From NCBI GenBank assembly GCA_963575745.1, contig CAUYUJ010000281.1:620001-662615 (forward strand): 42,615 bases of DNA, given 5' to 3'. Below the pieces are notes generated by a model. That model did no database searches. It worked only from the letters and a program-made list of their open reading frames with translations, and was not told where the DNA came from. The DNA is from Prorocentrum cordatum. Lineage: Eukaryota. This document shows, piece after piece, positions 20,592 to 41,761 of the stretch (positions within the stretch are counted from its first letter, which is position 1; the number at the start of each line of letters is the position of its first letter). Both the position numbers and the translations under genes were made by a program.

Positions 20592-20852
20592 AGTCGAAAG
20601 TGAGCCTGGTAACTCAAATAGCATCCGATTCCATGATAGACATCGGATGGCAAATAGCGTCCATCGCTCTGCTGTGATAGTTCAGTATGAGGAATTGGCG
20701 GATAAGATAGGATAAGATCGATGTATCGGTATTTCCAGCACATAGCGAACACTCGCGGTGTCCGGGCAAATAGGGCGCGCGTGCCTTGAGCCAAAGGCAA
20801 CGGCGCGCGAGCTATGCTCCCGATACTATAACATCTCCCAAAGAGCTACCCT
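20592..20852 (-). repeat. 3' LTR (261 bp)
   Basis: agtcgaaagtgagcc...aagagctaccct; 7 substitutions and no indels versus 36316-36576 by manual alignment (~97% identity). Confidence 0.95.
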
Positions 20853-21225
20853 TAAAGTCGGGAGGGGAGGAGACGGAGAGCATAGTCGCACGCAAAGGTT
20901 GCGCGCACGACTGTTTGCAAAAAAGGAAAACAGTGCGTACAGTCTGGCCTAACACCAGACTGTAAGGCGAGTTCCCTCGCAAAACATTTCACGCAAATGC
21001 AAGATAGCCCCTTCGAACGATGAAGGGCTATCGGCTCAGTTAGAGGTAGGCCAAACAGGCCATACCTCACCAAGCAAATCTGTATTAAGGCAAAGAGCCT
21101 GAGTTGTACAAAGCCGGCTCGTTGCCAGGCGTGAAATATATGGCTCGTTTCCGAGCAACTAGAAGGGCGCCTTTGTAGTGGGCGCCCGTGCTGGCAAATG
21201 GGACCGCGAGGACAACAAGGACCGA
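20853..21225 (-). other. 3' untranslated region of the element, hairpin-rich
   Basis: Lies between the pol stop and the 3' LTR. Inverted repeats: cagtctgg/ccagactg (20940-20962), gatagcccttc/gaagggctatc (~21003-21032), gggcgcc/ggcgccc (~21165-21187), plus GNRA hairpins. Confidence 0.7.
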
Positions 21226-24200
21226 CTAAAATTGATTAGACTTGGGTTTGTCTCTGTCCTCGGGGCCCCGAAAGGGAACAAACTGCTTAACGTCATACTT
21301 GAATGACTGGGTGCCTGACATCACTTCCAGAAGCAGCTCCCGATCGATGCTTCCCTTTGTATGTCCGTCTGCGGTCATATCCCTAGTATCACACCACTGC
21401 ACGTTATGTACTATACCTATATCCATAAGCTCACGTATCCAACTGATGTGTCCAAGCAGAGTCCGTTCTGTCGGGATCTTAAGATCCTTGCTTGATAATG
21501 ATTTATAAACGGACTCAGCGTCTATGGTGAGAGATACTTTGATGGCTAGACCTCCAACTTCACGCATATCTCGTAGTTGTCGTGGAGCCAGAGCTCCTGC
21601 CTTGAGCTCGTGGAGAGTGATGAGCGTAGGATAACACTCATCGAGGTTATGCGCCGCTGCGAGTGCCTCCGCAGCATAGCTGGACCTCACCTGCAGTCGG
21701 TGTGATTTGCATAGTCCGCCACAGAGGTGAACAACGGACTTGCCTTGAGGCGAGTTTCCTCGCCGTAGTGCATTTGCCCCGCGTATGCCGTAGCCCTTGG
21801 TCTCATCATCCTCCTCCCCGGTAAGCTTCCGATACCCCGAATCGCTGTGGATGTCAACTTCATTCGTCGGCTTCATCCGAGGGAAGGTGATGCGTTTCGG
21901 GCTGCTGATCAGCTTTCGCGTCACAGCATTCAGGCGTCTGACTTGCAGATTGGTGGGCTCTTGGATTTTCTGGAGAGAGACCACGTATACCATGAGCCAG
22001 ATTTGAGTAAGAAGGGCATAGGCGAGGGCTCCTCGCAAGCTGACGAACATGTCGGTAATGAGTTTCGTGGCTTTGGCATCGGCCGCCGCTCCTGTAAGTT
22101 CTGGGTGTGTGATAGGACGTAGTTGTTTGATATACTCGTCCTGATCCATAATCACATCCCCTTGGTCATTCTTAGTGTAGCGAACGGCGCAGTTCGTATA
22201 TGTGTGTTTGTTTAGCTTGCATTTGCCAAACACCTTTTCAACGCGCTGGACGTAGTCGTCTATATTTTTCTCTAGGCCAGTCATGTTAATATCATCGACA
22301 TGTTTTGCCGTTAGCAGATCTTGGCTGAATTCAAATTCAGGGTCATAACTGGTCGGTGTAAGACCCATAGCTCGTGTGGTCGTACGAAGTTTGAGAGAGA
22401 ACGCTCTTGGAGCATCCTTTGTACCCGTTCCTGGTTTGAGGCATATGAGGCAGTGTCGGCTTTCGTCATAAGATGAGAAGCCAGGTAGCGCACGAAGTAC
22501 CTGGGCACTTCCCGGTGGAAGAGTGAAGCAGACCATGCGAGTTTCCTCGCCCGTGGCATGGGCAAGTTCCTCACAGGTCAAGCCCTTGAGGAACGCCTTG
22601 TCGATATCCATGGATGCTAAGATCCACTCTGGATGACATGCCGCCTCACTTGCCAGGAGTCTTTGGGACTGCCTTCGGGCGGCTCCCGAGAATGTTTCCA
22701 CATCGAAAGCCTCAGTCACCATAAGTCCGCGAAGGACAAGTCTGAGACGAATGGTTTTAACGTTCTCGGTACCCATCTTTACAAACTTCCACTTGTATAC
22801 ATACCTGGATGTCATGATGTTGGAAGCTTTGGATAGACCATACATCTCACAGCATCGGTTGTCAATCCAGGTTTTGAGCTCAGTATACAAAGCTTCACTA
22901 ACCTCCTTTGGGTGTGCTGCTATGTCGGCTTTGGTCAGTAGATCATCTTCTTTAACGACCACAGCACGTTTAGCAGCAGAGGATACATATACTCTCATCG
23001 TTGCGACCATATCGGTGTCGAGCTGTGCAAGTTGAGTCTGATCCAACACTATTTTTGACATTTCTGATGTAAAACATAACTCAACGTAAGGACCATATTC
23101 ATCACTGTCAAGAGAGTAGCTCTCGTCAGGTGTGGTTGAGCATAGAGAGACTATACAGGACTCTCGTGGTTCAGGCTCGTCTCCGAGCGTGACCGGTGAT
23201 ATGGTATCTTCTTCGTCCACAGATGCTGAAACCAAAACACATTGGTCAGGCAGCATGGTTGTTGGGACGCAGTAAAGATAATCGTCGGTAGTCGTCGTAG
23301 GATGAAGGTCCATACGTAGTTCGTCGTACCATTCTTCCAGCATCGTAGCTTCGATATTATTTTCCTCATTTTCCTCATAGATTGTCGACAGACGGCCTTC
23401 GCTCGGCGATGAAGCACCCGGGGTGTCTGGAGGAGGCCTGTTGCCAGGCGAATCGTGTTCTCCAGACGTGTTGCTTGAGTGCTGATATTTAGCCAGGTCG
23501 TCATGAAATCCGAAGGAAGGGACACGTGAAGTCAAGCATTGGATGAGTCTGGAATGAGTGCTACCAGTGATCTGAGAAATGTTTAGGCCGGTGCCCACAC
23601 ACTCGTAGTAGTGGAAAGCCGGGCTGATATCGTTGTCATAGTGGATCAGCGTAGACCCGGTGGCGTACTTTACTGCAGGTAGGATTGACACACTTTTGGC
23701 CAATCTAACTGCCACTACATGTTCTACTCGGAAGTAGTTGCGTACGAGATACTGTAGTGCTAGATGTACGCGCGGGTGAAACTTGCTGTTGTCTGAAAGA
23801 TTAAGGTTTCCCTTGTAATCGGGGGTATAGCCGAAATCTTTGGCGGGTTTCCCTGCGCCGAGGTGTGCCACATATGTAAGGACGGTTTGCATGGCCATAG
23901 TATCCATGCCAAGTTCCCGTGTGAGGAGGCATTCAATGTATAGTGTGTGACGAGCATCAGGATACATCACAATTACCTCACGAGATCCTGCCTTGACAAC
24001 AATATGTCCTCTTTCAGGCACATTACGGATCACCGGGAAGGGGCCATTCCAGCCTCCATGGTCGTCCTTGGTGGCAGTGGGTCGGTGGTAATCGACCAAA
24101 TCCCCCGCAGAATAAAGGCGAGCACCATCAGGAGTCGTTTTAGCCCTAAGAGCCCGATTTGTCTTGGCCACAGCAGTGGCCTGAGTTATAGCCTCTAGGC

Positions 24201-24840
24201 TGACTTCCCGTACACGACGTTCTCGTTCGTGTCCTGAAGTCTCGGGTCCCTTGGGAAAGTCAAGGGTATCGAGATCGGGAAGGAAGGAAGGCTGACGTCC
24301 TGCATGTGCTTGGTATGGCGATACTCCGTTATAAAACGTAAAAGCATTAGTAACGAAGATGCCTTCCGCCAATACTCTAGTGAATACAACAGGGATGTTG
24401 TGTCTATTCAGTTCTTCCTCAATCATGTGGAAGACGCCTCTGAGGATGCCGCTCCGTGACTCAATTGAAGTCGCGTGTTGGCCAGGTGCTCGGATACGAA
24501 GTTCCGTGCCATTGTTGGCCATCATGGTTTTAGCGGCATCGTTATTCAGGGCACCTTCTCCGTCTGAGTATAAGACTTTGAAGGGTCCGTGATAGGCAAT
24601 CCAGCAGTAGTGGTAGGCATCAATGATAGTGTCACGTTCTCTGTCGGAAATTTCTAGGCCCGCTGTCAGGCGTATACAGCGATCCATAATATGAAATATG
24701 GTCCGCTTTTTGTAGAACATGAGGTCCATTTCACCTTCGTCAAGCCAGTTACCAGGAAGGCTCACCGAGGGTAGTGTTGAGTTTCCTGGACGTTCCCATG
24801 CTCTGCATTCCCGACAGGTATCGCAAACTTCCTTGATCAT
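21226..24840 (-). CDS. pol: Pol C-terminal part: integrase core, Copia-type reverse transcriptase, RNase H
   Basis: Integrase CDTCREC, DLMF, YSDGEG, IESRSG and an SH3-like WNGPFPVI; RT SRYVYKWK, RLRLVLRG, DIDKAFL, GTKDAPRAF, KHVDD; RNase H HSDSG, SSYAAEALA, IDAES, MTADGHTKG. Confidence 0.95.
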   Translation of the reverse strand: MIKEVCDTCRECRAWERPGNSTLPSVSLPGNWLDEGEMDLMFYKKRTIFHIMDRCIRLTAGLEISDRERDTIIDAYHYCWIAYHGPFKVLYSDGEGALNNDAAKTMMANNGTELRIRAPGQHATSIESRSGILRGVFHMIEEELNRHNIPVVFTRVLAEGIFVTNAFTFYNGVSPYQAHAGRQPSFLPDLDTLDFPKGPETSGHERERRVREVSLEAITQATAVAKTNRALRAKTTPDGARLYSAGDLVDYHRPTATKDDHGGWNGPFPVIRNVPERGHIVVKAGSREVIVMYPDARHTLYIECLLTRELGMDTMAMQTVLTYVAHLGAGKPAKDFGYTPDYKGNLNLSDNSKFHPRVHLALQYLVRNYFRVEHVVAVRLAKSVSILPAVKYATGSTLIHYDNDISPAFHYYECVGTGLNISQITGSTHSRLIQCLTSRVPSFGFHDDLAKYQHSSNTSGEHDSPGNRPPPDTPGASSPSEGRLSTIYEENEENNIEATMLEEWYDELRMDLHPTTTTDDYLYCVPTTMLPDQCVLVSASVDEEDTISPVTLGDEPEPRESCIVSLCSTTPDESYSLDSDEYGPYVELCFTSEMSKIVLDQTQLAQLDTDMVATMRVYVSSAAKRAVVVKEDDLLTKADIAAHPKEVSEALYTELKTWIDNRCCEMYGLSKASNIMTSRYVYKWKFVKMGTENVKTIRLRLVLRGLMVTEAFDVETFSGAARRQSQRLLASEAACHPEWILASMDIDKAFLKGLTCEELAHATGEETRMVCFTLPPGSAQVLRALPGFSSYDESRHCLICLKPGTGTKDAPRAFSLKLRTTTRAMGLTPTSYDPEFEFSQDLLTAKHVDDINMTGLEKNIDDYVQRVEKVFGKCKLNKHTYTNCAVRYTKNDQGDVIMDQDEYIKQLRPITHPELTGAAADAKATKLITDMFVSLRGALAYALLTQIWLMVYVVSLQKIQEPTNLQVRRLNAVTRKLISSPKRITFPRMKPTNEVDIHSDSGYRKLTGEEDDETKGYGIRGANALRRGNSPQGKSVVHLCGGLCKSHRLQVRSSYAAEALAAAHNLDECYPTLITLHELKAGALAPRQLRDMREVGGLAIKVSLTIDAESVYKSLSSKDLKIPTERTLLGHISWIRELMDIGIVHNVQWCDTRDMTADGHTKGSIDRELLLEVMSGTQSFKYDVKQFVPFRGPEDRDKPKSNQF

Positions 24841-24846
24841 GTTCAG

Positions 24847-27690
24847 TCAAACGTTATCAAGCCCCACTTTGTCGAGGATTAGCCTCATCTTTGGTTCCTT
24901 CGCATGATACCATCGCAGATGTAGTTTTCGGAGTTCCTTTTTCACGACGTGAAGTTCGTGACTACGGAGACTCTGTAGACTGTGTTGGATGTCGAATCTA
25001 GTCCAGTCGGGTAGTCGAGGAGCCCCAGAGCCGGTGGAGGCAAGAGGGTTCCTTGTAGCTCTTCGTAGTTGGTCCCCTGTGTTGACTGCATCTGGAGGTG
25101 GTGGTACGCCTTGTAGGCGGCCCCGACGGGCCGCTACCTGTGGCGTTTCGCTAGAGGACGCAGAAGGCGTGTTTCCACGCTCGGGGGCGTCTTGTAGCAT
25201 GTCGTAACTGCTGGCACCAGATGTCGGATCGACGTTACCGAAGGATCGTGGCCGTGGTGGCCTGGCGTGTGCGCCTTGGCGGCCACCTGAAGCTGAAGCT
25301 TGGCCCTCACCCGGTTTAGGTAAGGGTTTCCACCAAGCTGGCACGGTTTTGCCTTCGGGGTCGCGATCGTCTGGACGTTTAAATGGTTCAGCAAAACGAC
25401 ATTTACCAGGTTCGGTATCGAGGTGGTTCTTAACACCCTTGCTTCTCGTAAGATCCCTCTGGCATGCCGGACATGGCCAGTATACAGAGATAGAATCATG
25501 ATATTTACACTGTGTAGGGTCTCTGTTATGGCTAGGACTGTCCTTTCGGACGTTGTCGACGCATGCCGGGCAAGTGGCCACCTTTGGGATGATACGATCA
25601 CCGATGCGTCTCATACCTTCGCCTGGTTCAGCTTGATCGGGAAGGTCTGCAGGGTAAGCATGCGCGGTACTTATAGGCGCGTTTCCGCGCGTAGTGTCAA
25701 TGGCTTTCGCCAGATAGACGGCTTCCACGAAGGCAGACTGCAGTCGTCGAGTATATTTTTGTGCCAGTGAAAGCTCTTTATTGCACGGTTGTGCGCGCAC
25801 ATGCTGACCGTTGCACTTGAGTCGCTCAAAGGGTTTAAGAATTGTCTCGTCGTTGCTGGTGATGTCTGTCGGCTTCTTAATATAGTCACCAGCTGTGTCT
25901 TTGAGTCCCGTAGCACATTGGTCAATGCGTACGGTTGTAATGCGCGGTCGGTTGGCAAGTTTCTTCCATGGGGAAATATCATCCACCCATGTTCCTGTAG
26001 GTTGTTCGCGTATAAACCACCTCAGAGCGTCATCTTGGGTTACAGCAATTTTACCACAATAAGTTATGTGTGGTAAATCTTCTCTGCGGTGCTGTTCCCA
26101 AGTGTTGTAGTTGACTTTGTAGTTGTAGTAGGATGGTGGTCCTGCGGTGCGGCAACTGGGTTGTAGCATGGCAACTCGTACGTAGCATATAGCGAAGTAA
26201 TGATCTATAACCCGCTGCACCGAGGGGTCTCCCATATCGACATATGCAGTCTTGTCTCGGTTGCCTCCTGAGGAGAGTCCCCTTGAGAAGGCAAGCTCTG
26301 AGATACCACCCTCACCGCCACAAAGCTCCAACATGTCCACGCAGTTGTTATGTCCATAGCATAGTGTAGCAACTATGCTGTATATGTTAGCGCGTGTGTC
26401 GGGCATAGATGTGGGGAGGGTAAGGAACAGGTCATCGTCCTCATCGGAGCTTATCAGCTCAAGAGGGGCGTCAGTACTCCAGGTTGCCATAAGATCCTGT
26501 CCGAGTCCTGATAAATCGTCGCCGCAATCATCGTTTCCGTCTTCAACGTGCTTTTTTATGCGGCGAGGCTTGATGCCTGCTTCCTTTTCGGCTTTGAGCC
26601 TTTCCTTCTGCTTGATACGCGATTCTGTGGGTAGAACTTGCTCATCTTGTTCGCCGGTCTGCGTGCCCATTGTCGTGGTTGAGTGGGTACATGCGTCAAC
26701 CGCCAGAGTCGGGAGGGGGAGGCAACAGTCATCTATGATGACGCGTCGAGGTTTCTGTGGTGATTGAATAGGCTCGTTTCCGAGCAAGACCGGTTCTTCG
26801 GGTTGCCAATACAGCCGAGTGCTGATGTTGGCAACCCCTGCAGGTAGTGGTGCATGCCAATCATATCCTGTTGGTTGATCGGTAACTGAGATATCCTGAA
26901 TAACCGCATTGGTATCCAGGTTAATTGTTACACGTCGGATAACTTCAGACCATTTCGGTCCTCCCTTATTGGTCGTCACGTAGTGACGGATGTTGTGGTC
27001 TGTACGTGTATAGGTGTTTAAATATATAGGCACGTTTCCGTGCGTGGTGGTGCTCCCCAGGATGTTGTCGTTCAGATGACGGATGAGTGTAGTACGTGTC
27101 TGAGCTCGCCATTCAGCATGCCGTACTGCATGGCCGTACCAATCCAATACATGTTGTGGTATAGCCTGTTTGCATGTACATGCCCACGGCTTCGAGCTAA
27201 TCGGTATTGATGACGCTACCTGCATATAAGTACCACTCGGTGTACTGTCTTGCATATTGAACCGAATACCGAAATGACACAAACGCATCCGTATTACTGA
27301 CAACTTAAGATCTTCCAGGGTATCACGTACTGGAGACAACTTCCAAACATATCCTGGGGGACCAAATATTATGATTTTCATACGGAGTTTCTTGGCTTTT
27401 ATCAACAGGTTCTGGATACGTGACCAATGCGGGGCCACTCTCTTTCCTGGAGCTCGTACATACCAGTCACCCGGGGTACTAATCCATATGAGAGTATAAT
27501 CTCCACTGATCACCGCACCCAGGTAATCTGTGCCCACGCTTGTCATAAGCTCATTGTGGGAAATACGATCACAGATATAACCTCGGGTGCGGAGGTCGGC
27601 GCAAGCCTCTCTCGTATCCTCAATGACAAAAGCCCTCTTACTAAGGCAGGTTACCCCGCTGTCCTTGTTACCCCCCGGCTTTTCGGCCAA
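24847..27690 (-). CDS. Polyprotein segment: two C5-cytosine-methyltransferase-like domains, tandem C2HC fingers and the His-His half of the integrase zinc finger
   Basis: MLELCGGEGG (motif I-like), LQPSCR (IV-like), IREQP (VI-like), IDQCATGL...KKPT. An earlier degenerate copy has LIWISTP, IFGPPGYVW, LCHFG. CPAC..H..C occurs twice. LRKLHLRWYH is in frame with the downstream ORF across one TGA. Confidence 0.75.
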   Translation of the reverse strand: MAEKPGGNKDSGVTCLSKRAFVIEDTREACADLRTRGYICDRISHNELMTSVGTDYLGAVISGDYTLIWISTPGDWYVRAPGKRVAPHWSRIQNLLIKAKKLRMKIIIFGPPGYVWKLSPVRDTLEDLKLSVIRMRLCHFGIRFNMQDSTPSGTYMQVASSIPISSKPWACTCKQAIPQHVLDWYGHAVRHAEWRAQTRTTLIRHLNDNILGSTTTHGNVPIYLNTYTRTDHNIRHYVTTNKGGPKWSEVIRRVTINLDTNAVIQDISVTDQPTGYDWHAPLPAGVANISTRLYWQPEEPVLLGNEPIQSPQKPRRVIIDDCCLPLPTLAVDACTHSTTTMGTQTGEQDEQVLPTESRIKQKERLKAEKEAGIKPRRIKKHVEDGNDDCGDDLSGLGQDLMATWSTDAPLELISSDEDDDLFLTLPTSMPDTRANIYSIVATLCYGHNNCVDMLELCGGEGGISELAFSRGLSSGGNRDKTAYVDMGDPSVQRVIDHYFAICYVRVAMLQPSCRTAGPPSYYNYKVNYNTWEQHRREDLPHITYCGKIAVTQDDALRWFIREQPTGTWVDDISPWKKLANRPRITTVRIDQCATGLKDTAGDYIKKPTDITSNDETILKPFERLKCNGQHVRAQPCNKELSLAQKYTRRLQSAFVEAVYLAKAIDTTRGNAPISTAHAYPADLPDQAEPGEGMRRIGDRIIPKVATCPACVDNVRKDSPSHNRDPTQCKYHDSISVYWPCPACQRDLTRSKGVKNHLDTEPGKCRFAEPFKRPDDRDPEGKTVPAWWKPLPKPGEGQASASGGRQGAHARPPRPRSFGNVDPTSGASSYDMLQDAPERGNTPSASSSETPQVAARRGRLQGVPPPPDAVNTGDQLRRATRNPLASTGSGAPRLPDWTRFDIQHSLQSLRSHELHVVKKELRKLHLRWYHAKEPKMRLILDKVGLDNV

Positions 27691-30613: not shown

Positions 30614-32225
30614 ACCGAGCAGGTCCGTTTATAGGCAGGTTTCCCTGCACGGCCCGACGATTTCGCAGTGCCATGGCGGACATTGCTCCCTGGCCTGCGG
30701 CCCAGGGGTCCTGCTGATATAACCTGTTCGCCAGTTGCTCTACCTGGTCAGGGTTCAGCGCGGCTGCTATCTGATCCAGGTCCGAGGTGCTGATGGCCTG
30801 CCAAGACACGGCACTGGGCCCTTGGCTTGGGGCACGGCTTGGAGCCGCGCTCCCGGCCTCACTCTCGGTGATCATGAAGATCCGGTGGATCTCAGGCTGG
30901 TTTCCCAGCTTGGTGGGGCTATAATGGTCCCCAACTTCCCTGTGGGGGTAGACCATGGGAGGGTCGGTGCCCTCTTGGTCTCGGGACCACTGGTATTTAA
31001 CGCTAGCACTGCCAACGTTAGCCCACCTGTCAGGAGCAGACATTATGGCGACGGGGACTCGCGCCCGGCGATTCCCCAGATACTCTGGATCACGCCAGTG
31101 CTTTCCCGTGGCAAGGTCCTCTACATGAGAGATGTAGTACGGTTCAATAATACCGTTGTTTCCCTCAGACAAGAGGACTCCGTTATCGGACCAACAGAAC
31201 TTCATTCCATCTTGTATGGCCTTGTGCCAATCCACGAAGATGATGATGTCGGAGTCTGGGTCCCACCCACTGTTCACGGCACGGCGGCGGACCGCCGGCG
31301 CGAAGTGGATGTGCGACCGACCTGTCCCCTGTTTCTTCGTATTGTGTTCAGGTCTACAGGACAGGCCGTGCCACATAATGCCTTCGAAGGCATGCCACCG
31401 AGTGCCATGCTTGGCGACTTCGGGGTATGGGGCCGGTCTCCCGGCAGGTTGGTCGCACAGTACAATGTAGTTGTACAGCGACCATGGCGCTCTCAATGTC
31501 CATGAATGCCCCTGAGAGGCGCGGGTGAAGATAGCGGGCTCACCGGAGTCCCGCACCAACACCTTGAACTGAAGGCGCTGTTTTTCTTCTCCGTCTGGTT
31601 CACGGACATGAACAACTTCCATCATGATGGCTGCCAATTGGTCAACCGAGCGAGCAACTAGCTGCTCATTGATGACTTTGGCCTCGTCATATCTTGGATT
31701 ATACCCATCGTGTCTCGATTTTCCTGTGTTCCACGGATATTCATTCACGAGCTCTACGAGGTTAAGCCAACCATCATGATCATCGAAGGAGTCCAAGCCC
31801 CACACGGGATTGTGAGGTTTGTCTGGCGCATGTCTGCATATCCTGCTGAGAGCTTTACTCAGCTGTTTGAGAGTGTGATTGGATGTAGGAAGGATTTTGT
31901 CTTGCCTGCACTTCCTCATGAATGCCTCGTCCACCGAACGTATCGGTGGGAGCTTCCGCAGGGCAAGTCTATCCCTGATCACACTCGGACTCCCACTAGT
32001 GAAGGACGTGTCGCCTGGGTGGTGCAGCTGAACCACGGGCGGGTTTCCCCGCATCGGAACCTCTGTTGCTGACGAGGCTGCGGCTCCTGAAGAGGAGGAA
32101 GCTGCAGCAGCAGCGCCTGGCGGGTTTCCCCGCGGTGATACGCGACTGGCGCTACCCCTAATCGTCGGCACCCAGGTACCCCTAGACATAGCACCTTCAT
32201 CGGACCTCTTGGAACGGGCCGCCAC
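30465..32225 (-). CDS. tpt1: Polyprotein segment containing a Tpt1/KptA NAD-dependent RNA 2'-phosphotransferase domain (~31130-31865)
   Basis: LSKALSRICRH, KQRLQF, RASQGHS, KHGT, IMWHGLS, RSHIHFA, IIFVDWHKAIQDGMKF, SDNGVLLSEGNNGIIEPYY: the Tpt1 motif series in the expected order. Confidence 0.88.
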   Translation of the reverse strand: MAARSKRSDEGAMSRGTWVPTIRGSASRVSPRGNPPGAAAAASSSSGAAASSATEVPMRGNPPVVQLHHPGDTSFTSGSPSVIRDRLALRKLPPIRSVDEAFMRKCRQDKILPTSNHTLKQLSKALSRICRHAPDKPHNPVWGLDSFDDHDGWLNLVELVNEYPWNTGKSRHDGYNPRYDEAKVINEQLVARSVDQLAAIMMEVVHVREPDGEEKQRLQFKVLVRDSGEPAIFTRASQGHSWTLRAPWSLYNYIVLCDQPAGRPAPYPEVAKHGTRWHAFEGIMWHGLSCRPEHNTKKQGTGRSHIHFAPAVRRRAVNSGWDPDSDIIIFVDWHKAIQDGMKFCWSDNGVLLSEGNNGIIEPYYISHVEDLATGKHWRDPEYLGNRRARVPVAIMSAPDRWANVGSASVKYQWSRDQEGTDPPMVYPHREVGDHYSPTKLGNQPEIHRIFMITESEAGSAAPSRAPSQGPSAVSWQAISTSDLDQIAAALNPDQVEQLANRLYQQDPWAAGQGAMSAMALRNRRAVQGNLPINGPARFEQMQGSPSQSMRTPKGHDSNGHATCTVSVRDSCPPCHKRHSHGEDSCG

Positions 32226-33960
32226 TGGCGACGCTGGCGCAGGGGCATACCCGGTGCGCTCGAAAGCTGCGGCCCTTTCGCAATGGAGCTGCTGCGACTG
32301 GGCGGACGTCTCCGTTCCTCCACAGGGTCCTGAGATTGCTGCTTGGGCTCAGACGCTTGTGCAGGAGTTGCGCCAATCGGCGGCCTCGGAGTTGCAGACC
32401 GAGGCACCTCCATCTGCACATCTGGCCCAGGGTCCTGAGAGTGCGCCTTCGGTTTCGCCTTCGAAGACGGCTTCGGTGCAGGGGTTTCACTCTTAGCCTT
32501 CGACAGTAGTGGGAGGGGGGGTTCCTAACCCCCTTCATGTAATTTTTGTTGGAATCCTCCAACATCTGGCGAGTTGCCTCGCGTGCGCGTTCGTCTGCTA
32601 TTCGCATGCGTTCCTCGTCCTCCGCAACTCGTTGGGCCTTCTGTTCATCCTTGGATGTCAGTTCTGGTTGCTGGGACCGACTTGAAACTCCAGGCGAGTT
32701 TCCTCGCATTCCAGGAAGACTAAAGAGCGCGTCTTTTTCTTCCTGGGTCATGGGCACCAGCCCCCTTGGAGCCGTGGGAGGTTTATCCTCTTCGGCTTTC
32801 GGATCCAAGTGGCTCAAGATCCCGAGACGTTGACTCACTTCTGCGATCTCGTCCTGTGTCATCGGGATAAGTTGCGGATGGCCCTCTTTATGAAGGGTTT
32901 TGCCCCTGTTGGGGCTCAGGCCTTCATTGTTTCCAACGGGGCATCCCGGCCTGTGGTTCTGGAACGGCTCGGAACAAGGTCCGCAAGCTGCTTGGGGCCT
33001 ATACTGCTTGCGAGCTGCGATGATGTCTCGCAGCTGAGTCCGCGCTTCTTGAATTTCAGGGCGGCGGATGTTTGTTGCAAGCTGATATCCTCCGCGGATA
33101 GCCTTGCCCTCAGTGTCCCTATAGGCAGGGCTGTCCTTGCCGAAGGCCGAGTGTTCCCCTTTTCGGCGTCTTGGGTCATTATGCGGAAGCAGCTGGCCAC
33201 CTCTCCTGAGAGCGTGTTCTTTCGGGCCAGCTTGCCTCCATTCACGAGGAAGCCGAGCCTGTGGATGTGGCTCTCCTCTGACGCGCGTATGGGAACGAGA
33301 CCTTCTGGTGTTCTCATCAGAAGAGGCTGCCGAAGCAGCCTGAGCGGCCACCGGTGGAGGCGCCTGCGGAGGCTCCTGTGCGATCCCAGGTGGATCGCCC
33401 GTCAGAGGCAGGTTTCCCTGCTGGCTGGAGCTCGGCGCAAATGGCGCCTGTGCCGATGGTGATGATGGTTCAGACTCGTCGGGATCGAAGTCAACCTCTT
33501 CCTCACCATTAACATCCATCATGAGGATTGTAACTTCATCCTCATCTAGTCCGCAACCATCGCCTTCTTCTTCTTCTGATGTAGAACTACCGATAATGAT
33601 GGCCATTGGCGTATCAGGTACTGGCAAATTTCCCTGCATGGCCGGCGTCTGTGCGTCGCTCGGCTGCCCCGGGGTAGGAGGCGCTGTTGTCGGCTCAGGC
33701 TCGTTGCCGAGCACGGGCTGCCCGGCAATGTTGCGCATGGCCGTATGGTTTGGCCACATTCCCACCGCCTGGAGACCCCATCCTGGCGGAGGAAGATCAT
33801 GACCGCGCATGGCGATAGCCATTTCCAGAGCATTGCGCCATCTACCTCGGGAATATATCAGGTGTCTCTGCACGTCCTCTGGATGTACGCTGTCAATGAG
33901 AGTCAGAGCTGCCAACAGCAACTCCGAGCTACCGCAGGCGTCGGTATCCTGCAGTATCAT
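32197..33960 (-). CDS. Polyprotein segment of unknown function (acidic/proline-rich, one CxxC-H-C motif)
   Basis: 587-aa non-repetitive ORF between Gag and Tpt1; CGPCSEPFQNHRPGC at 32941-32985. It probably frameshifts near 32515. Confidence 0.65.
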   Translation of the reverse strand: MILQDTDACGSSELLLAALTLIDSVHPEDVQRHLIYSRGRWRNALEMAIAMRGHDLPPPGWGLQAVGMWPNHTAMRNIAGQPVLGNEPEPTTAPPTPGQPSDAQTPAMQGNLPVPDTPMAIIIGSSTSEEEEGDGCGLDEDEVTILMMDVNGEEEVDFDPDESEPSSPSAQAPFAPSSSQQGNLPLTGDPPGIAQEPPQAPPPVAAQAASAASSDENTRRSRSHTRVRGEPHPQARLPREWRQAGPKEHALRRGGQLLPHNDPRRRKGEHSAFGKDSPAYRDTEGKAIRGGYQLATNIRRPEIQEARTQLRDIIAARKQYRPQAACGPCSEPFQNHRPGCPVGNNEGLSPNRGKTLHKEGHPQLIPMTQDEIAEVSQRLGILSHLDPKAEEDKPPTAPRGLVPMTQEEKDALFSLPGMRGNSPGVSSRSQQPELTSKDEQKAQRVAEDEERMRIADERAREATRQMLEDSNKNYMKGVRNPPSHYCRRLRVKPLHRSRLRRRNRRRTLRTLGQMCRWRCLGLQLRGRRLAQLLHKRLSPSSNLRTLWRNGDVRPVAAAPLRKGRSFRAHRVCPCASVASGGPFQEVR

Positions 33961-36467
33961 GCTGTCAGCTTCGATGTGCTCTTGACTCTCGGGAACGCGG
34001 TGATAAGTATCTCATGCGTCCTCATGAGGGTCTGCAGAAGAGTACGTGGTCCGTATTCGCCTGGAGCAAGCGAACCAGGGGGTACAAATGGGGTCTCTGG
34101 TTCACCTGTAATGAAAGCTTGTGCGAATGCCTGAGACTCCATTTCTATCAAGTCTTCAGTAGTTTGGGGATATTCTCCCATCAAAGAAGGCCTGCTTCCA
34201 GGCGGGATTTCGGGGGGAGGTTGGAGGTGGCGTTCAACCTCAGAAGGCGAGGCCTCTACAGTGATGTCCTCGTCACTGCTTTCGTAGGCCATGATGTTAC
34301 CTGGGTTCCCGAACATCCAGCCGAAGAAAGAAAGAGGCTGGTTTCCCAGCGTACCGTGATCCACGGGAGTGAGCTCGTTATTGCCCATAACGAACCGGCG
34401 GACGTACTCGAGGTAGTACGCGTACAATCCATGACCATACGCCTCGAGCTCGTCGACGTTGCCCATGCAACTGACCCAAGTGTAAAATATCTGCTCCATG
34501 GCTTCAAAATCCTGGAGGCTCAGATACTCAATGAATGGTTCACTTGAGCCAAAATGGACTTCGGTCGACCTGCCCTTTCCATTTCCCTTCGCTGGACAAT
34601 CTCGCACAAGATGGTCGGTACTATCACATTCATGGCATTTAAGAACCTGGCCGTCTCTACCTCGCGGGTTTCCCCGCCTACCCTTGCCTTTTCCTGAGGT
34701 CTCTCTACGGCCCTTGCCACGGCCCTTTCCCCCAAAGAAGATCTCATCATATTGTTCATCTGAGAGCCTCTGGAGAAATGCCGCGATGCCTCGTCCGTTC
34801 AACCTCCGACGACCACGCTTACCTTTACCTTTTCCCTTAAAACTCCTCCGTATCCTCCTTCTAACACGACGCACTGGTTTTCGTGTGAACCTCCTCCACC
34901 TTCGTTTGGCCTGTTGTAATAACCAGAACAGATGTTCAGCGCGCTGATTGTCATTATCCATATTCATAATATCTGACCAATCTAAAGCTTCAACACCATC
35001 TGATGATACAGTATCTGTGTCGGTGCCGGAGTCGAAATCCTCGTCTCCCAAGTAGGTGGATACACCGTCGGTTAGGGGGTTTGATTCGCCCCATAAGGAG
35101 CGGTGTGGTTGCGGTTCTCTGGAAGGAGGGCTGGTTGCCCAGCTTGGTTGTGATCGATCTCCTGCTAGTAAAGCAGTGGATTCTCCAGGATCATCAGCCC
35201 ATATGCTTGAGGGCCCGTTCCCAGGCTGGGCTTCAGTAGTCAGGGTAGTGTAGAAATTTCCACTACCAGATCCCCTTCCCCTTCCAAACACAGATCCTAT
35301 ATTACCAGGAGACCGTTCGGATAGGTGGCCTATCGAACGCATCCTCTCCAGCAACTCATCATACTGTTGTTGTGTTCGGGGCATTTGGTGATTAAGTGGC
35401 TGTAAGAGTCGCATGGCTCGCTGGTTGCCGACGCCTAAGGCGCGGAACAAGATCGCGGTTAGTAGTTGGAAGTTGGGAAGGTCAAATCCCACCGACTGTG
35501 CCTCAAGACGGGCCATTTCGAATCGGGTGAGGGTGACATCGATTCGCTCCCCGTGAGGCACGTGAAAGTCGATGAGTTGTGTGCCGGAAGTGAGCTGGCG
35601 CTCATCTTCCAGGCGTTCGAACTTCATGCTTAGGAGGAACATGATGTAGGTCACTGGGTCAGTATGGACCCCATCGATGTCAGCACCATAATTTATGATG
35701 TCAGGCGGTACCCTCATGGCGAGTGTCCTCGCTAGGCCACCTAGGCCGCGTTGTATTGCGGCCGCTTGGGCCTGTGGCGTCATACGTCCGCTTGTGACGT
35801 TGAGCCATTCGTTGACCTCATAAACGTACTCCCGGAAAGGTACGTTGCTTTGAGGGTCCCAATATGGGCCATGTGTTTGCCCATCGGTGCTGCTGTCTCC
35901 ACGACGCATGTGCCCGATTGCTGCCCCCAGCGCGAACCATATGATAGCGAAGATAACCAGCCCAAGGCTATGTAGATAAGGGCGGTTATTAGGCGCGTTT
36001 CCGCGCTGGGGTAGCGCCTTGTCGAGTCTTCGAGGCGCTCTATCTGGCGGATCTCTCCGCCCCTGCTTCACGTATTGCGTTTTTGGCTCGTTGCCGAGCG
36101 GTTGGTGGTAGCGCAATGATGAAGCGTATATGGTACCAATGTCGTTGTCTAGACGTCGTACCTCTCGTGTCGCTTCTTGCTCTTGGATAGATCCTCGTAA
36201 ACGTACTGGGAGTAATAGCGCAGGGTGGTAGGTGGTCACGAAGATCGTACCGAAGAGTATGAGGCTAAGAAGAGCAAGAGCTGACCACACGAGAGTGCGG
36301 CCAGCTCCGCTACCAAGTCGAAAGTGAGCCTGGTAACTCAAATAGCATCCGATTCCATGATAGACATCGGATAGCAAATAGCGTCCATCGCTCTGCTGTG
36401 ATAGTTCAATATGAGGAATGGGCGGATAAAACAGGATAAGATCGATGTATCGGTCTTTCCAGCACAT
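33957..36467 (-). CDS. gag: Gag-like protein with N-terminal hydrophobic segments and CCHC zinc knuckle
   Basis: CHECDSTDHLVRDC (C-x2-C-x4-H-x4-C) in a KGKGK/RG-rich nucleocapsid-like region; capsid-like PYWDP...FREY...W. The start is uncertain: the first ATG at 36467 is inside the LTR and the next is at 35909. Confidence 0.85.
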   Translation of the reverse strand: MCWKDRYIDLILFYPPIPHIELSQQSDGRYLLSDVYHGIGCYLSYQAHFRLGSGAGRTLVWSALALLSLILFGTIFVTTYHPALLLPVRLRGSIQEQEATREVRRLDNDIGTIYASSLRYHQPLGNEPKTQYVKQGRRDPPDRAPRRLDKALPQRGNAPNNRPYLHSLGLVIFAIIWFALGAAIGHMRRGDSSTDGQTHGPYWDPQSNVPFREYVYEVNEWLNVTSGRMTPQAQAAAIQRGLGGLARTLAMRVPPDIINYGADIDGVHTDPVTYIMFLLSMKFERLEDERQLTSGTQLIDFHVPHGERIDVTLTRFEMARLEAQSVGFDLPNFQLLTAILFRALGVGNQRAMRLLQPLNHQMPRTQQQYDELLERMRSIGHLSERSPGNIGSVFGRGRGSGSGNFYTTLTTEAQPGNGPSSIWADDPGESTALLAGDRSQPSWATSPPSREPQPHRSLWGESNPLTDGVSTYLGDEDFDSGTDTDTVSSDGVEALDWSDIMNMDNDNQRAEHLFWLLQQAKRRWRRFTRKPVRRVRRRIRRSFKGKGKGKRGRRRLNGRGIAAFLQRLSDEQYDEIFFGGKGRGKGRRETSGKGKGRRGNPRGRDGQVLKCHECDSTDHLVRDCPAKGNGKGRSTEVHFGSSEPFIEYLSLQDFEAMEQIFYTWVSCMGNVDELEAYGHGLYAYYLEYVRRFVMGNNELTPVDHGTLGNQPLSFFGWMFGNPGNIMAYESSDEDITVEASPSEVERHLQPPPEIPPGSRPSLMGEYPQTTEDLIEMESQAFAQAFITGEPETPFVPPGSLAPGEYGPRTLLQTLMRTHEILITAFPRVKSTSKLTA
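36301..36315 (-). promoter_or_regulatory. tRNA primer-binding site (probably initiator tRNA-Met)
   Basis: Minus strand TGGTAGCGGAGCTGG directly abuts the 5' LTR. The TGGTAGC start matches the ..GCUACCA 3' end typical of eukaryotic initiator tRNAs. Confidence 0.8.
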
Positions 36468-36576
36468 AGCGAACACTCGCGGTGTCCGGGCAAATAGGGC
36501 GCGCGTGCCTTGAGCCAAAGGCAACGGCGCGCGAACTATGCTCCCGATACTATAACATCTCCCAAAGAGCTACCCT
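36316..36576 (-). repeat. 5' LTR (261 bp)
   Basis: Direct repeat of 20592-20852. Confidence 0.95.
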
Positions 36577-36714
36577 GGACGGAGTGACGGCGGGAGCGTC
36601 CAAAATGGCCTCGGCAAGCAGGCCCAAATCATTGATTTCTGCCACGGCCTCTTGGGAAGAGCGCAATCCCCCCCCCCCGCCCCCCCGTCCTCCCTACCCC
36701 CTTCTTTGATCGAT

Positions 36715-36870
36715 CACCTTGAAGATGGCCCCAAGATGGCCCCCGAGGCTCCCAAGAGTGCCCCAAGAGGCGCCCAGGAGGCCCCAAGAGGCCAAGAGAC
36801 CCCCAAGAGGCCCCCTCCCAAGGCACCGAAGACGCTTCAAGAGGCCTTGAGGGCCGCCGCGAGGCCCCAA
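36715..36870. repeat. Degenerate (CCCAAGAGGCC)-like 11-bp repeats
   Basis: Direct inspection. Confidence 0.7.
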
Positions 36871-39596: not shown

Positions 39597-39770
39597 ACGC
39601 GTCCCTGCGCCCGCGGGTCTCCAGGGGTCTGCGGCCCTGCCGAGGCCGAGGGGGCGGGGCGCGGCGCGCGGTGCGCCGCGAGGATATCGGCCAATGGGCC
39701 AGTGGGGCTTATAGTCGGGGGGTCTGGCACCCAGCAGCGGCGCTCAGCTTTCACCTCCTCCTCTCACGTT

Positions 39771-41760: not shown

Positions 41761-41761
<1 letters not shown>

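What the first reader, a model, noticed from the sequence alone, without database searches (positions are those of the whole stretch)
20966..36099. About 30 covarying GNRA-tetraloop hairpins spread along the retroelement sense strand
Seen: the minus strand repeatedly carries 5'-GC-NN-G-[GAAA/GCAA/GGAA/GTAA]-C-N'N'-GC-C-3', where NN varies but stays paired. Approximate plus-strand starts by stem type are as follows. CAGG/CCTG: 28086, 29232, 29313, 30393, 30634, 33407. CTCG/CGAG: 21142, 26771, 30215, 33698, 36085. CGGG/CCCG: 28710, 32038, 32119, 34664. CGAG/CTCG: 20966, 21749, 22537, 29805, 32693. CGCG/CGCG: 25676, 35992. CTGG/CCAG: 30895, 34336. CGTG/CACG: 25166. CACG/CGTG: 27029. CCTG/CAGG: 23435. 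G-U wobble variants sit at 27645 and 33623, and mismatch variants at 21116 and 23842. That is nine different compensatory stems, all with the GNRA loop on the sense strand. Most read as the peptide xGNxP (QGNLP, LGNEP, RGNPP, RGNSP, RGNAP, HGNVP), but copies at 30215, 27645, 23842 and 22537 are in other frames and three lie in the 3' UTR, so the constraint is on the nucleic acid. Established: GNRA tetraloops are stable RNA folds and protein or tertiary docking sites. Inference: these are distributed packaging or compaction signals for an unusually long genomic RNA, or binding sites for Gag or a cargo domain. I know of no description of this in LTR retrotransposons, but I could not search.
Basis: partly seen in the sequence, partly recalled or inferred. 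Interest (0 to 1): 0.93.

Follow-up and report, generated by a model that had tools for sequence, protein, structure and literature searches.

The report
Sense-strand GNRA hairpin array in retrotransposon
A 16-kb LTR retrotransposon, probably from a dinoflagellate, carries about 40 small, strand-specific GNRA-tetraloop RNA hairpins written through its protein-coding sequence, relatives carry them too, and they most likely act as repeated docking sites on the element's genomic RNA.

Summary
The minus strand of 20967-36099 holds 36 strict GC-NN-G-GNRA-C-N'N'-GC sites. Of these, 32 are fully Watson-Crick. There are none on the plus strand and none in 26.9 kb of flanks. Shuffles give 0.2 (dinucleotide) or 3.6 (synonymous codons).

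All sites lie between two 261-bp LTRs (20592-20852, 36316-36576). The element encodes a Gag with an Arg-rich stretch and a CCHC knuckle, a Tpt1/KptA domain, a RING finger and a weak RVT_2 match.

In 26 related metagenome loci (35-75% Pol identity) the motif is again sense-specific (48 versus 4). G·U pairs outnumber A·C. Some orthologous sites change compensatorily. One lineage uses a different stem (TCACG...CGTGA). Another reads the same hairpin in a different frame (AGQPA instead of xGNxP). The constraint is therefore on the nucleic acid, not the peptide.

Positions turn over quickly, and some relatives have few or imperfect hairpins.

Function is inferred, not shown. My best guess (about 0.45) is dispersed binding and packaging sites for the element's own Gag. 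No Rfam family matched, and five full-text searches found no description of such hairpins.

The parts
36316..36576 (-). 5' LTR (261 bp). The gag reading frame already opens inside it.
   Evidence: blastn self-match to 20592-20852 at 97.3% identity; sequence read
20592..20852 (-). 3' LTR
   Evidence: sequence read
36301..36315 (-). PBS-like TGGTAGCGGAGCTGG directly 3' of the 5' LTR
   Evidence: read; its likeness to tRNA primer-binding sites is recalled, not tested
33957..36524 (-). ORF1, Gag-like. It has an Arg-rich stretch (KRRWRRFTRKPVRRVRRRIRR), GKGKG/RR repeats and one CCHC knuckle.
   Evidence: translation; weak zf-CCHC Pfam hits; the Arg-rich stretch is conserved in L016 Gag
32197..33960 (-). 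ORF2, no known domain
30465..32225 (-). ORF3 with an RNA 2'-phosphotransferase Tpt1/KptA domain
   Evidence: PF01885, E 9e-23
27668..30613 (-). ORF4 with a RING finger
   Evidence: PF17123/PF13639
24847..27690 (-). ORF5, no known domain
21226..24840 (-). ORF6, Pol-like, with a weak RVT_2 match
   Evidence: PF07727, E 3.8e-6, 27.1 bits, below the 31.6-bit cut-off
20853..21225 (-). 3' UTR, strongly structured, holding three of the hairpins
   Evidence: MFE -150.1 kcal/mol, z -6.57. The hairpins at 21143 and 20967 form in the MFE; 21117 does not.
36086..36099 (-). hairpin GCTCG-GCAA-CGAGC, phase 2 (LGNEP)
   Evidence: local pair probability 0.96
35993..36006 (-). hairpin GCGCG-GAAA-CGCGC, phase 2 (RGNAP)
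   Evidence: probability 0.37
35719..35732 (-). hairpin GCGAG-GACA-CTCGC, phase 0, GACA loop
   Evidence: probability 0.96
35213..35226 (-). hairpin GCCTG-GGAA-CGGGC (one U·G), phase 2
   Evidence: an L016 hairpin lies within 12 nt of the aligned position
35130..35143 (-). hairpin GCTGG-GCAA-CCAGC, phase 1
   Evidence: an L011 hairpin lies within 12 nt of the aligned position
34664..34677 (-). hairpin GCGGG-GAAA-CCCGC, phase 2, inside the basic region of Gag
34337..34350 (-). hairpin GCTGG-GAAA-CCAGC, phase 2
33699..33712 (-). hairpin GCTCG-GCAA-CGAGC, phase 2
   Evidence: low local probability 0.08
33408..33421 (-). hairpin GCAGG-GAAA-CCTGC, phase 2
32694..32707 (-). hairpin GCGAG-GAAA-CTCGC, phase 2
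32569..32582 (-). hairpin GCGAG-GCAA-CTCGC, phase 1
32120..32133 (-). hairpin GCGGG-GAAA-CCCGC, phase 2
32039..32052 (-). hairpin GCGGG-GAAA-CCCGC, phase 2
31432..31445 (-). hairpin GCCGG-GAGA-CCGGC, phase 0, inside the Tpt1 domain
30896..30909 (-). hairpin GCTGG-GAAA-CCAGC, phase 2
30635..30648 (-). hairpin GCAGG-GAAA-CCTGC, phase 2
30394..30407 (-). hairpin GCAGG-GAAA-CCTGC, phase 2
30216..30229 (-). hairpin GCTCG-GCAA-CGAGC, phase 0
29806..29819 (-). hairpin GCGAG-GGAA-CTCGC, phase 2
   Evidence: aligns exactly with L016 7053 GCGGG-GCAA-CCTGC
29314..29327 (-). hairpin GCAGG-GAAA-CCTGC, phase 2
29233..29246 (-). hairpin GCAGG-GAAA-CCTGC, phase 2
28711..28724 (-). hairpin GCGGG-GAAA-CCCGC, phase 2
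28176..28189 (-). hairpin GCGGG-GCAA-CCCGC, phase 0
28087..28100 (-). hairpin GCAGG-GAAA-CCTGC, phase 2
27990..28003 (-). hairpin GCCAG-GACA-CTGGC, phase 0, GACA loop
27646..27659 (-). hairpin GCGGG-GTAA-CCTGC (one G·U), phase 1
27030..27043 (-). hairpin GCACG-GAAA-CGTGC, phase 2 (HGNVP)
   Evidence: P0002 has HGSVP here plus an extra HGDVP in a 5-aa insertion
26772..26785 (-). hairpin GCTCG-GAAA-CGAGC, phase 2 (LGNEP)
   Evidence: P0002 has LGDEP
25677..25690 (-). hairpin GCGCG-GAAA-CGCGC, phase 2 (RGNAP)
   Evidence: P0002 has RGDTP
25167..25180 (-). hairpin GCGTG-GAAA-CACGC, phase 2 (RGNTP)
   Evidence: P0002 has HGDVP plus an extra RGDAP in a 4-aa insertion
23843..23856 (-). hairpin GCAGG-GAAA-CCCGC (one A·C mismatch), phase 0
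   Evidence: orthologous L007 1858 is GCGGG-GAAA-CCTGC with a G·U
23436..23449 (-). hairpin GCCTG-GCAA-CAGGC, phase 2
   Evidence: aligns with TCACG-GAAA-CGTGA hairpins in L020 (exactly) and L019 (9 nt away)
23175..23188 (-). hairpin GCTCG-GAGA-CGAGC, phase 2 (LGDEP)
   Evidence: aligns exactly with L019 1669 and L020 825 TCACG...CGTGA
22537..22550 (-). hairpin GCGAG-GAAA-CTCGC, phase 1, inside the RT-like domain
   Evidence: none of the 14 aligned relatives has a hairpin here
21750..21763 (-). hairpin GCGAG-GAAA-CTCGC, phase 2
   Evidence: orthologous GCGTG-GMAA-CACGC in L006, L007 and L016, an A-U to U-A swap
21143..21156 (-). hairpin GCTCG-GAAA-CGAGC, 3' UTR
21117..21130 (-). degenerate site GCCTG-GCAA-CGAGC, 3' UTR; predicted not to form
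   Evidence: probability 0.0
20967..20980 (-). hairpin GCGAG-GGAA-CTCGC, 3' UTR
27822..27835 (-). variant hairpin GCGGA-GCAA-TCCGC (A-U closing pair)
   Evidence: covariance-model hit, 18.0 bits; sequence
28744..28757 (-). variant hairpin GCGGG-GCAG-CCCGC (GCAG loop)
   Evidence: covariance-model hit, 17.4 bits
33624..33637 (-). variant GCAGG-GAAA-TTTGC (two G·U)
   Evidence: covariance-model hit, 13.5 bits, E 0.93

Best explanation
Statement. The hairpins are selected cis-acting RNA structures on the element's genomic and messenger RNA. Each has a 5-bp stem and a GNRA tetraloop closed by G-C, and in this copy each is followed by an unpaired C. About 40 of them lie roughly every 400 nt between the LTRs. 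Most sit in poorly conserved linker segments of a giant polyprotein, and three sit in the 3' UTR.

Most likely function. They are repeated docking sites for an element-encoded RNA-binding module. The candidate is the conserved Arg-rich stretch plus CCHC knuckle of Gag. Many Gag copies would then bind the 16-kb RNA cooperatively and selectively, condensing and packaging it. This is the logic of dispersed packaging signals in ssRNA viruses and of arginine-rich peptides binding GNRA-like hairpins.

Shown versus inferred.
- Shown: the motif exists, is strand-specific, covaries, recurs in relatives, and does not depend on the encoded peptide.
For: Window counts. There are 36 strict sites on the sense strand against 0 on the antisense strand and 0 in the flanks. 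Dinucleotide shuffles give 0.2 and synonymous shuffles 3.6. 188 of 190 pair cells are standard pairs, the two middle pairs covary freely, and 0 of 500 shuffles reach the observed score.

Predicted folding and spacing. The hairpins are predicted to form locally, with mean pair probability 0.74 and 31 of 38 at 0.5 or higher. Spacing is more even than random placement (CV 0.69 against 0.96; 1.3% of random placements are as even).

Relatives.
- Strict motif in 26 loci (90.6 kb): 48 sense, 4 antisense.
- All 58 covariance-model hits with E<0.1 are on the sense strand.
- With only the G-GNRA-C core required, sense has 37 fully paired and 27 with one G·U; antisense has 2 and 1.
- G·U against A·C is 27:16 overall and 10:1 in L016, which has a 7,959-nt open frame. 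That points to the sense strand as the folding strand.

Orthologous sites with compensatory change. 21750 GCGAG/CTCGC matches GCGTG/CACGC in L006, L007 and L016. 29806 matches L016 7053. 23436 and 23175 match TCACG/CGTGA hairpins in L019 and L020.

Independence from the peptide. L016 reads the hairpin nine times as AGQPA, in phase 0. L019 and L020 read it as SHGNVN.

Close relatives. In the 78%-identical protein P0002, 7 of 7 xG[ND]xP motifs are complement-compatible. Between close relatives, all 4 changes in 171 hairpin nt keep GNRA or create a wobble.

Placement. Flanks of the hairpins are 52% identical to P0002, against 75% elsewhere.

Candidate reader. Gag carries KRRWRRF.RKPVR..RR.IRR plus a CCHC knuckle. 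This stretch is almost unchanged in L016 Gag, although Gag overall is 43% identical.
Against: No binding, structure-probing or expression data exist. No RNA run holds the element.

Positions are poorly conserved. Only 12 of 93 aligned site-by-locus comparisons have a hairpin within 12 nt.

Some relatives have few or no hairpins (L001, L002, L005, L012, L022). Several of these loci cover only the hairpin-poor Pol end.

In L009, 0 of 9 strict sites are fully Watson-Crick and 6 carry an A·C mismatch, although the locus has a 6,147-nt open frame.

In L019, L020 and L008 the hairpins sit in longer repeated units. New ones in P0002 lie in 4-5-aa insertions next to old ones. Part of the array therefore spreads by local duplication rather than by independent selection.

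The lower substitution rate in hairpins (4/171 against 361/8540 in independent pairs) is not significant on its own.

Nothing links the hairpins to Gag rather than to a host protein or to another element protein.
Confidence: 0.45

Rival explanations
1. The hairpins are binding sites for a host RNA-binding protein, for example one acting in nuclear export, RNA stability, localisation or translation of a very long unspliced RNA. They are not sites for the element's own Gag.
For: The same sequence evidence for a sense-strand RNA hairpin applies. Multiple copies of a small hairpin are a common way to recruit a host factor. Hairpins also occur in the 3' UTR.
Against: 27 kb of host flanks hold none, though this is a small sample. 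Stem consensus differs by element lineage (GC..GC, TCACG..CGTGA, GCAYG), which fits an element-encoded reader better, but the hosts of the loci are unknown.
Confidence: 0.2
2. The hairpins play a purely architectural RNA role. Many stable local hairpins keep a 16-kb RNA from misfolding over long range, or compact it through tetraloop docking, with no specific protein reader.
For: Spacing is more even than random and local formation probability is high. GNRA loops are classic tertiary docking modules (established knowledge).
Against: The canonical 11-nt GAAA receptor is essentially absent: 1 CCTAAG on the sense strand. A generic structural role does not explain the invariant outer G-C/C-G pairs, the G-C closing pair, the 3' C, or lineage-specific stems.
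Confidence: 0.12
3. The structure acts in single-stranded plus-strand DNA, or on the RNA template, during reverse transcription. Possible roles are pausing, strand-transfer or recombination points, or internal priming for a very long element.
For: Strand specificity and G·T tolerance also fit plus-strand DNA. GNRA-type mini-hairpins are also stable in DNA (recalled knowledge). New hairpins appear as short insertions beside old ones, as slippage at hairpins during copying would give.
Against: The purine runs in the hairpins are only 5-7 nt, too short to resemble polypurine tracts. No known step of reverse transcription needs about 40 dispersed hairpins. Nothing here tests this reading.
Confidence: 0.08
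4. The hairpins are substrates or marks for another element-encoded enzyme, such as the Tpt1/KptA RNA 2'-phosphotransferase or ADP-ribosyltransferase domain or one of the unannotated ORFs, which modifies the genomic RNA at these sites.
For: A Tpt1 domain is encoded in the window (E 9e-23). A Tpt1-like segment also lies in hairpin-rich L016 (27.9% identity, E 7e-20).
Against: Known Tpt1 substrates are internal 2'-phosphates or 5'-phosphate ends, not tetraloops (recalled knowledge). Whether other hairpin-bearing lineages encode Tpt1 is unknown because the loci are partial.
Confidence: 0.05
5. There is no RNA function. The array is a by-product: a short palindromic module that multiplies by slippage or duplication, or a repeated peptide (for example a linker or protease site) whose coding sequence happens to be palindromic.
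For: Repeated longer units occur in L008, L019 and L020, and new hairpins arise as 4-5-aa insertions beside old ones. One reading phase dominates within each lineage. Positions turn over quickly.
Against: A peptide motif cannot explain complementarity between codons 1 and 4, the UTR copies, or the same hairpin being read as xGNxP, AGQPA or SHGNVN. At site 21750 relatives align without a gap, so that hairpin arose in place. Flanks of window hairpins share no similarity while stems stay paired with 10 different middle-pair combinations. Changes between close relatives keep the fold.
Confidence: 0.07

Closest known systems
Dispersed packaging signals of ssRNA viruses (MS2, STNV, parechovirus, enterovirus-E; PMC7793301, abstract seen in the listing; the other examples are recalled)
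   Same: Many short stem-loops are spread over the whole genomic RNA, including coding regions. They share a loop motif, have variable stems, and lie on the packaged strand only.
   Different: Those are RNA viruses with coat proteins. Their motifs are degenerate and were found by SELEX or CLIP. Here the element is an LTR retrotransposon, the motif is a near-invariant 15-mer with a true GNRA loop and fixed outer pairs, and no binding has been shown.
Lambda/P22 N peptide with boxB (arginine-rich motif bound to a GNRA-like hairpin; recalled knowledge)
   Same: A 5-bp stem capped by a GNRA-type fold. The candidate reader is a Trp-containing Arg-rich stretch (KRRWRRF...), seen.
   Different: boxB has a pentaloop, occurs once or twice per transcript, and serves antitermination. 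Here there is a tetraloop in about 40 copies. Binding by the Gag stretch is only inferred.
Retroviral and Ty1 packaging signals (Psi; e.g. the tetraloop stem-loops of the MLV and HIV-1 leaders; reviews PMC7599994 and PMC13736810 seen only in the listing)
   Same: cis-acting stem-loops on the genomic RNA of a reverse-transcribing element, read by a Gag NC domain with a CCHC knuckle.
   Different: Psi is one compact region in the 5' leader and the start of gag. Here there is no cluster in the leader, and the sites are spread over 15 kb down to the 3' UTR.
In-frame palindromic mobile insertions (Rickettsia palindromic elements; recalled knowledge)
   Same: Palindromic sequence that sits in-frame inside protein-coding genes and is tolerated as extra peptide.
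   Different: RPEs are about 100-150 bp, spread over many unrelated genes, and are similar in sequence. These hairpins are 14-15 nt, confined to one retroelement family, vary in stem, and at least one arose in place without an indel.

Membership tests
GNRA tetraloop hairpin (RNA structural motif) | Four-nucleotide loop with G at position 1, R at position 3 and A at position 4 | tested here: met
   36 of 38 window sites are GNRA: GAAA 22, GCAA 8, GGAA 3, GAGA 2, GTAA 1. The other 2 are GACA.
GNRA tetraloop hairpin (RNA structural motif) | Loop closed by a Watson-Crick helix that is kept through covariation | tested here: met
   188 of 190 pair cells are paired. The two middle pairs show 5 pair types each, and 0 of 500 shuffles reach the score. 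Orthologous compensatory changes are seen.
GNRA tetraloop hairpin (RNA structural motif) | Sheared G·A pair and the tetraloop fold in the actual RNA | not testable with these tools
   Needs chemical probing or NMR. Only thermodynamic prediction is available.
Dispersed packaging signals (PS-mediated assembly) | Multiple stem-loops with a common loop motif dispersed along the packaged RNA, on that strand only | tested here: met
   38-41 sites over 15.1 kb, mean spacing 409 nt, and 0 on the other strand.
Dispersed packaging signals (PS-mediated assembly) | Conserved as a set in related genomes | tested here: inconclusive
   The set is present in most related lineages. However, only 12 of 93 aligned comparisons keep the position, and some relatives have few, none or mismatched sites.
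Dispersed packaging signals (PS-mediated assembly) | Sequence-specific binding by the capsid protein, with an effect on assembly or packaging | not testable with these tools
   No RNA-protein prediction or experiment was available. A candidate Arg-rich plus CCHC region was seen.
Retroviral-type Psi packaging signal | A single structured region in the 5' leader or the start of gag | tested here: not met
   The first hairpin lies 217 nt 3' of the 5' LTR. The sites then run to the 3' UTR with no leader cluster.
Ty1/Copia LTR retrotransposon | Direct long terminal repeats flanking an internal gag-pol region | tested here: met
   261-bp repeats at 97.3% identity. ORFs on one strand lie between them.
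Ty1/Copia LTR retrotransposon | Copia-type reverse transcriptase (RVT_2) passing the family threshold, with integrase upstream of RT | tested here: inconclusive
   RVT_2 scores 27.1 bits, below the 31.6-bit cut-off. No rve or protease hit was found in the window ORFs. Precomputed PF07727 is listed on relative P0002, and PF00665 on the distant P0005.
In-frame palindromic mobile elements (RPE-like) | Copies inserted (indel against homologues) in many unrelated genes of the genome | tested here: not met
   There are none in 26.9 kb of flanks. Site 21750 aligns without a gap to relatives that lack the hairpin. Two extra hairpins in P0002 do lie in 4-5-aa insertions.

The most novel reading that the evidence does not exclude
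A clade of giant, cargo-carrying LTR retrotransposons of marine protists has written a 'barcode' of about 40 GNRA hairpins through its own polyprotein gene. An arginine-rich and zinc-knuckle module of its Gag reads that barcode to pick out and condense a 16-kb RNA. This would be the first packaging-signal-mediated assembly system in a retroelement. The stem consensus would co-evolve with the element lineage, and the encoded peptide (xGNxP, AGQPA, SHGNVN) would be a mere passenger.
Probability: 0.35. Interest if true: 0.88.

Novelty: new variant of a known kind. Interest (0 to 1): 0.8.

Why it matters
How very long retroelement RNAs are recognised and packaged is poorly understood. Known retroviral and Ty packaging signals are single leader structures.

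An array of about 40 near-identical, covarying tetraloop hairpins embedded in-frame in a coding sequence would be an unusually clean natural case of overlapping RNA-structure and protein codes. It would also make a packaging-signal model directly testable with simple hairpin mutants.

The 15-nt motif and covariance model also give a cheap marker for this abundant element family in dinoflagellate-type genomes and marine metagenomes.

Tried and rejected
- Whole genome: none is held, so host-wide motif density could not be measured.
- Earlier scan notes: none.
- RNA evidence: no RNA holder was listed among 24 runs, so this says nothing about expression.
- Read laying on 4 runs: it showed a very high-copy family. 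Only 40 of 2,715 differences were printed, and none of those falls in a hairpin, which is too few to use.
- Viral contig scans with Pol and with Gag: no relatives.
- Rfam at gathering thresholds over the whole window: 0 families.
- PDB sequence search with ORF2, ORF5 and ORF6: 0 hits. ESM Atlas with ORF5: no usable hit.
- Canonical 11-nt tetraloop receptor: 1 CCTAAG on the sense strand, so no support.
- Alternative hairpin types in relatives that lack the motif (loops of 3-7 nt, repeated 10-mers): none found in L001, L002, L005, L012, L014 or L022.
- Peptide-only reading (protease or linker motif xGNxP): rejected on the synonymous shuffles, the UTR copies and the AGQPA reading in L016.
- Palindromic double-stranded DNA protein site: rejected by reasoning. 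A dimer reading two half-sites gives no reason for the unread NN to stay complementary, nor for the spacer to keep one orientation.
- Literature: full-text searches for GNRA/hairpins/retrotransposon/dinoflagellate, packaging signals/stem-loops/retrotransposon/Gag/tetraloop, Tpt1/KptA/retrotransposon/Copia and dinoflagellate/LTR retrotransposon/copia/polyprotein found no description of such hairpins. PMC5890265 has 0 occurrences of 'hairpin' or 'stem-loop'. Subscription journals are not covered by these searches.

Full report
**1. The observation**

A strict search for GC-NN-G-GNRA-C-NN-GC did not require NN to pair. It finds 36 sites on the minus strand and none on the plus strand. All lie between 20967 and 36099. 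The 26,915 nt outside the element have none on either strand.

32 of the 36 sites are fully Watson-Crick.
- 27646 and 35213 each have one G·U.
- 23843 has one A·C.
- 21117 has one C·A plus one U·G.

Allowing any G-N-N-A loop adds two perfectly paired GACA-loop sites, at 27990 and 35719. The covariance model adds three weaker variants, at 27822, 28744 and 33624.

An unbiased list of all perfect 5-bp/4-nt-loop hairpins read on the minus strand gives 62 inside the element. Their loops include GAAA 21, GCAA 8, GAGA 3, GACA 2 and GGAA 2. Outside the element there are 70, with no GNRA excess.

**2. Chance and coding**

300 dinucleotide shuffles of the element give a mean of 0.20 sites (maximum 2). 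300 synonymous-codon shuffles of the six ORFs give 3.6 sites and 1.5 paired (maxima 8 and 5). The ORFs hold 33 sites with 30 paired.

On the 38-row alignment, 188 of 190 pair cells are standard pairs. The outer two pairs and the closing G-C never vary. The two middle pairs show GC, CG, AU, UA and a few GU. No shuffle out of 500 reaches the observed covariation score, and sliding the 3' arm destroys pairing.

The base after the stem is C in 36 of 38 sites, in all reading phases and in the UTR. The unit is therefore a 15-mer.

**3. Context**

The sites lie inside an LTR element on the minus strand. The 261-bp direct repeats at 20592-20852 and 36316-36576 are 97.3% identical. A PBS-like TGGTAGCGGAGC follows the 5' LTR.

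Six large minus-strand ORFs are separated by frame changes and one in-frame stop. They encode:
- a Gag-like protein with a long Arg-rich stretch and one CCHC knuckle;
- a Tpt1/KptA domain (E 9e-23);
- a RING finger;
- a weak RVT_2 match, below the Pfam threshold.

35 hairpins are in ORFs: 25 in the phase that reads xGNxP, 6 in phase 0 and 4 in phase 1. Three are in the 373-nt 3' UTR, and none is in the LTRs.

The two hairpins that sit inside recognised domains (31432 in Tpt1, 22537 in the RT-like region) use the other phases.

Against the 78%-identical protein P0002, the 12 residues on each side of a hairpin are 52% identical, compared with 75% elsewhere. The hairpins therefore sit mostly in variable linkers.

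**4. Predicted folding**

In a local partition-function fold the five pairs have mean probability 0.74, and 31 of 38 reach 0.5 or more. Mean spacing is 409 nt with CV 0.69, against 0.96 for random placement. Only 1.3% of random placements are as even.

The 3' UTR folds far better than shuffles (z -6.57). Two of its three sites form hairpins in the minimum-energy structure.

**5. Relatives**

The family is very abundant in public runs, with 864 to 30,015 contigs laid per run at 80% likeness or more.

A metagenome scan with Pol returned 26 loci (90,591 nt) at 35-75% amino-acid identity. In these loci:
- the strict motif occurs 48 times on the sense strand and 4 times on the antisense strand;
- all 58 covariance-model hits with E<0.1 are sense, and 9 of the 100 hits at E up to 10 are antisense or outside an element, all with E of 0.6 or more;
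- requiring only G-GNRA-C, sense has 37 fully paired, 27 with one G·U and 16 with one A·C;
- on the same test, antisense has 2, 1 and 4.

L016 has a 7,959-nt open frame and the same gag-Tpt1-RING order. It has 10 G·U against 1 A·C. G·U would be C·A on the other strand, so this points to the sense strand as the one that folds.

**6. Independence from the peptide, and lineage-specific versions**

- L016 reads the same hairpin mostly in phase 0, nine times as AGQPA.
- L019 and L020 carry 10 and 8 copies of a different stem, TCACG-GRRA-CGTGA, read as SHGNVN.
- L008 uses GCAYG...CGTGC.
- In P0002 all 7 xG[ND]xP motifs are xGDxP with codon-complement-compatible first and fourth residues (HGDVP, LGDEP, RGDTP, RGDAP, PGDRP). 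This implies GNGA loops at sites orthologous to the window's xGNxP. It is inferred from protein only.

**7. Orthology and turnover**

Some sites are shared with compensatory change.
- 21750 GCGAG/CTCGC matches GCGTG/CACGC in L006, L007 and L016.
- 29806 matches L016 7053.
- 23436 and 23175 match TCACG/CGTGA hairpins of L019 and L020.
- 23843 (A·C) matches L007 (G·U).

Most sites are not shared. Only 12 of 93 aligned site-by-locus comparisons have a hairpin within 12 nt.

At 21750 many relatives align without a gap and without a hairpin, so that hairpin arose in place. In P0002 two extra hairpins lie in 5- and 4-aa insertions beside old ones. In L008, L019 and L020 the hairpins sit in 22-35-nt repeated units, so local duplication also makes new ones.

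Between close relatives, taking independent pairs, 4 of 171 hairpin nucleotides differ against 361 of 8,540 elsewhere. That difference is not significant by itself. All four changes fall on loop N/R positions or create a U·G.

**8. Results against a simple picture**

- L009 has 9 strict sites, none fully Watson-Crick, and 6 with A·C at the third pair.
- L001, L002, L005, L012, L014 and L022 have few or none, and no alternative repeated hairpin. Several of these loci cover only the Pol end.
- The Pol tree is largely unresolved, so gains and losses cannot be ordered.

**9. Mechanism**

The data show a selected, sense-strand, single-stranded nucleic-acid hairpin kept as a set. Function is inferred.

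The reading I favour (about 0.45) is repeated docking sites for the element's Gag. Gag carries KRRWRRF.RKPVR..RR.IRR plus GKGKG/RR repeats and a CCHC knuckle. This stretch is nearly unchanged in L016 and P0007, although Gag overall is 43-47% identical.

The rivals are:
- a host RNA-binding protein;
- a purely architectural role, for which the canonical tetraloop receptor is absent;
- a role in plus-strand DNA during reverse transcription;
- a substrate for the encoded Tpt1 or another enzyme;
- a functionless duplicating module.

**10. What is known**

No Rfam family matches. Four topical full-text searches and one targeted paper found no description of such hairpins in retroelements.

The nearest concepts are dispersed packaging signals of ssRNA viruses (PMC7793301, abstract seen in the listing), arginine-rich peptide with boxB (recalled), and retroviral Psi. 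The array differs from Psi in being dispersed.

I rate it a new variant of a known kind of cis-element, with interest 0.8.

Noticed in passing
window 34543-34557 (minus strand, in gag just after the CCHC knuckle); also 20785-20794 and 36509-36518 in the LTRs: CCATTTTGGCTCAAG equals the last 15 nt of the dinoflagellate spliced-leader 21-mer. I recalled that 21-mer, and it occurs in 28 dinoflagellate papers (listing). Both LTRs carry a degenerate copy ending in TTGGCTCAAG (3 hits against 0.06 expected). The full 21-mer with up to 3 mismatches is absent. This suggests a dinoflagellate host and past capture of trans-spliced RNA.
   Followed up: partly
window 30465-32225 and 27668-30613 (minus strand); L016 4960-5748 and 6229-7506: The retroelement carries a Tpt1/KptA RNA 2'-phosphotransferase domain and a RING finger as cargo. 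The distant relative L016 has them in the same order. Searches found no paper linking Tpt1 to retrotransposons.
   Followed up: partly
window 20853-20880 and 20580-20591 (minus strand): The sequence just upstream of the 3' LTR is pyrimidine-rich (CTCCTCCCCTCCC) rather than a polypurine tract. Its purine complement GAGGGGAGGGG lies just outside the 3' LTR. The LTR ends are not the usual TG...CA.
   Followed up: no
window 36465-36524 (minus strand): The gag reading frame opens inside the 5' LTR. Homology to L016 Gag starts at residue 55, which is still within the LTR.
   Followed up: no
window 30570, 27774 and other indel sites: Most laid contigs of runs X2, X9 and X3 lack one base at 30570, which lies in the ORF3/ORF4 overlap. 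At least this ORF break may therefore be private to this copy rather than programmed.
   Followed up: no
protein P0002 (78% identical relative): All phase-2 hairpin peptides are xGDxP or xGSxP instead of xGNxP. This is a concerted A-to-G difference in the loop across sites. It is inferred from protein only.
   Followed up: partly
L008 3692-3730, 5960-5998 and 7994-8032; L019 and L020 hairpin pairs 33-39 nt apart: In these relatives the hairpin sits in a longer conserved unit (about 35 nt in L008, about 22 nt in L019/L020). The unit is repeated at distant places in the polyprotein gene.
   Followed up: partly
window 1-20500 and 36600-42615: The flanks are dominated by tandem and low-complexity repeats. 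These include an 11-nt array at 4090-4624, 73-nt arrays at 11585-16280, 77-78-nt arrays at 1807-2830, triplet-type runs at 13741-14900 and 39240-39600, and a 12-nt GAGATCGATAGT-type array at 37760-38850. A 100-N gap lies at 8837-8936.
   Followed up: no
window 20400-36800: The element family is extremely abundant in public runs: 30,015, 12,564, 2,691 and 864 contigs were laid at 80% likeness or more. It is held in part by 20 runs from 15 studies, mostly marine and some freshwater metagenomes.
   Followed up: partly
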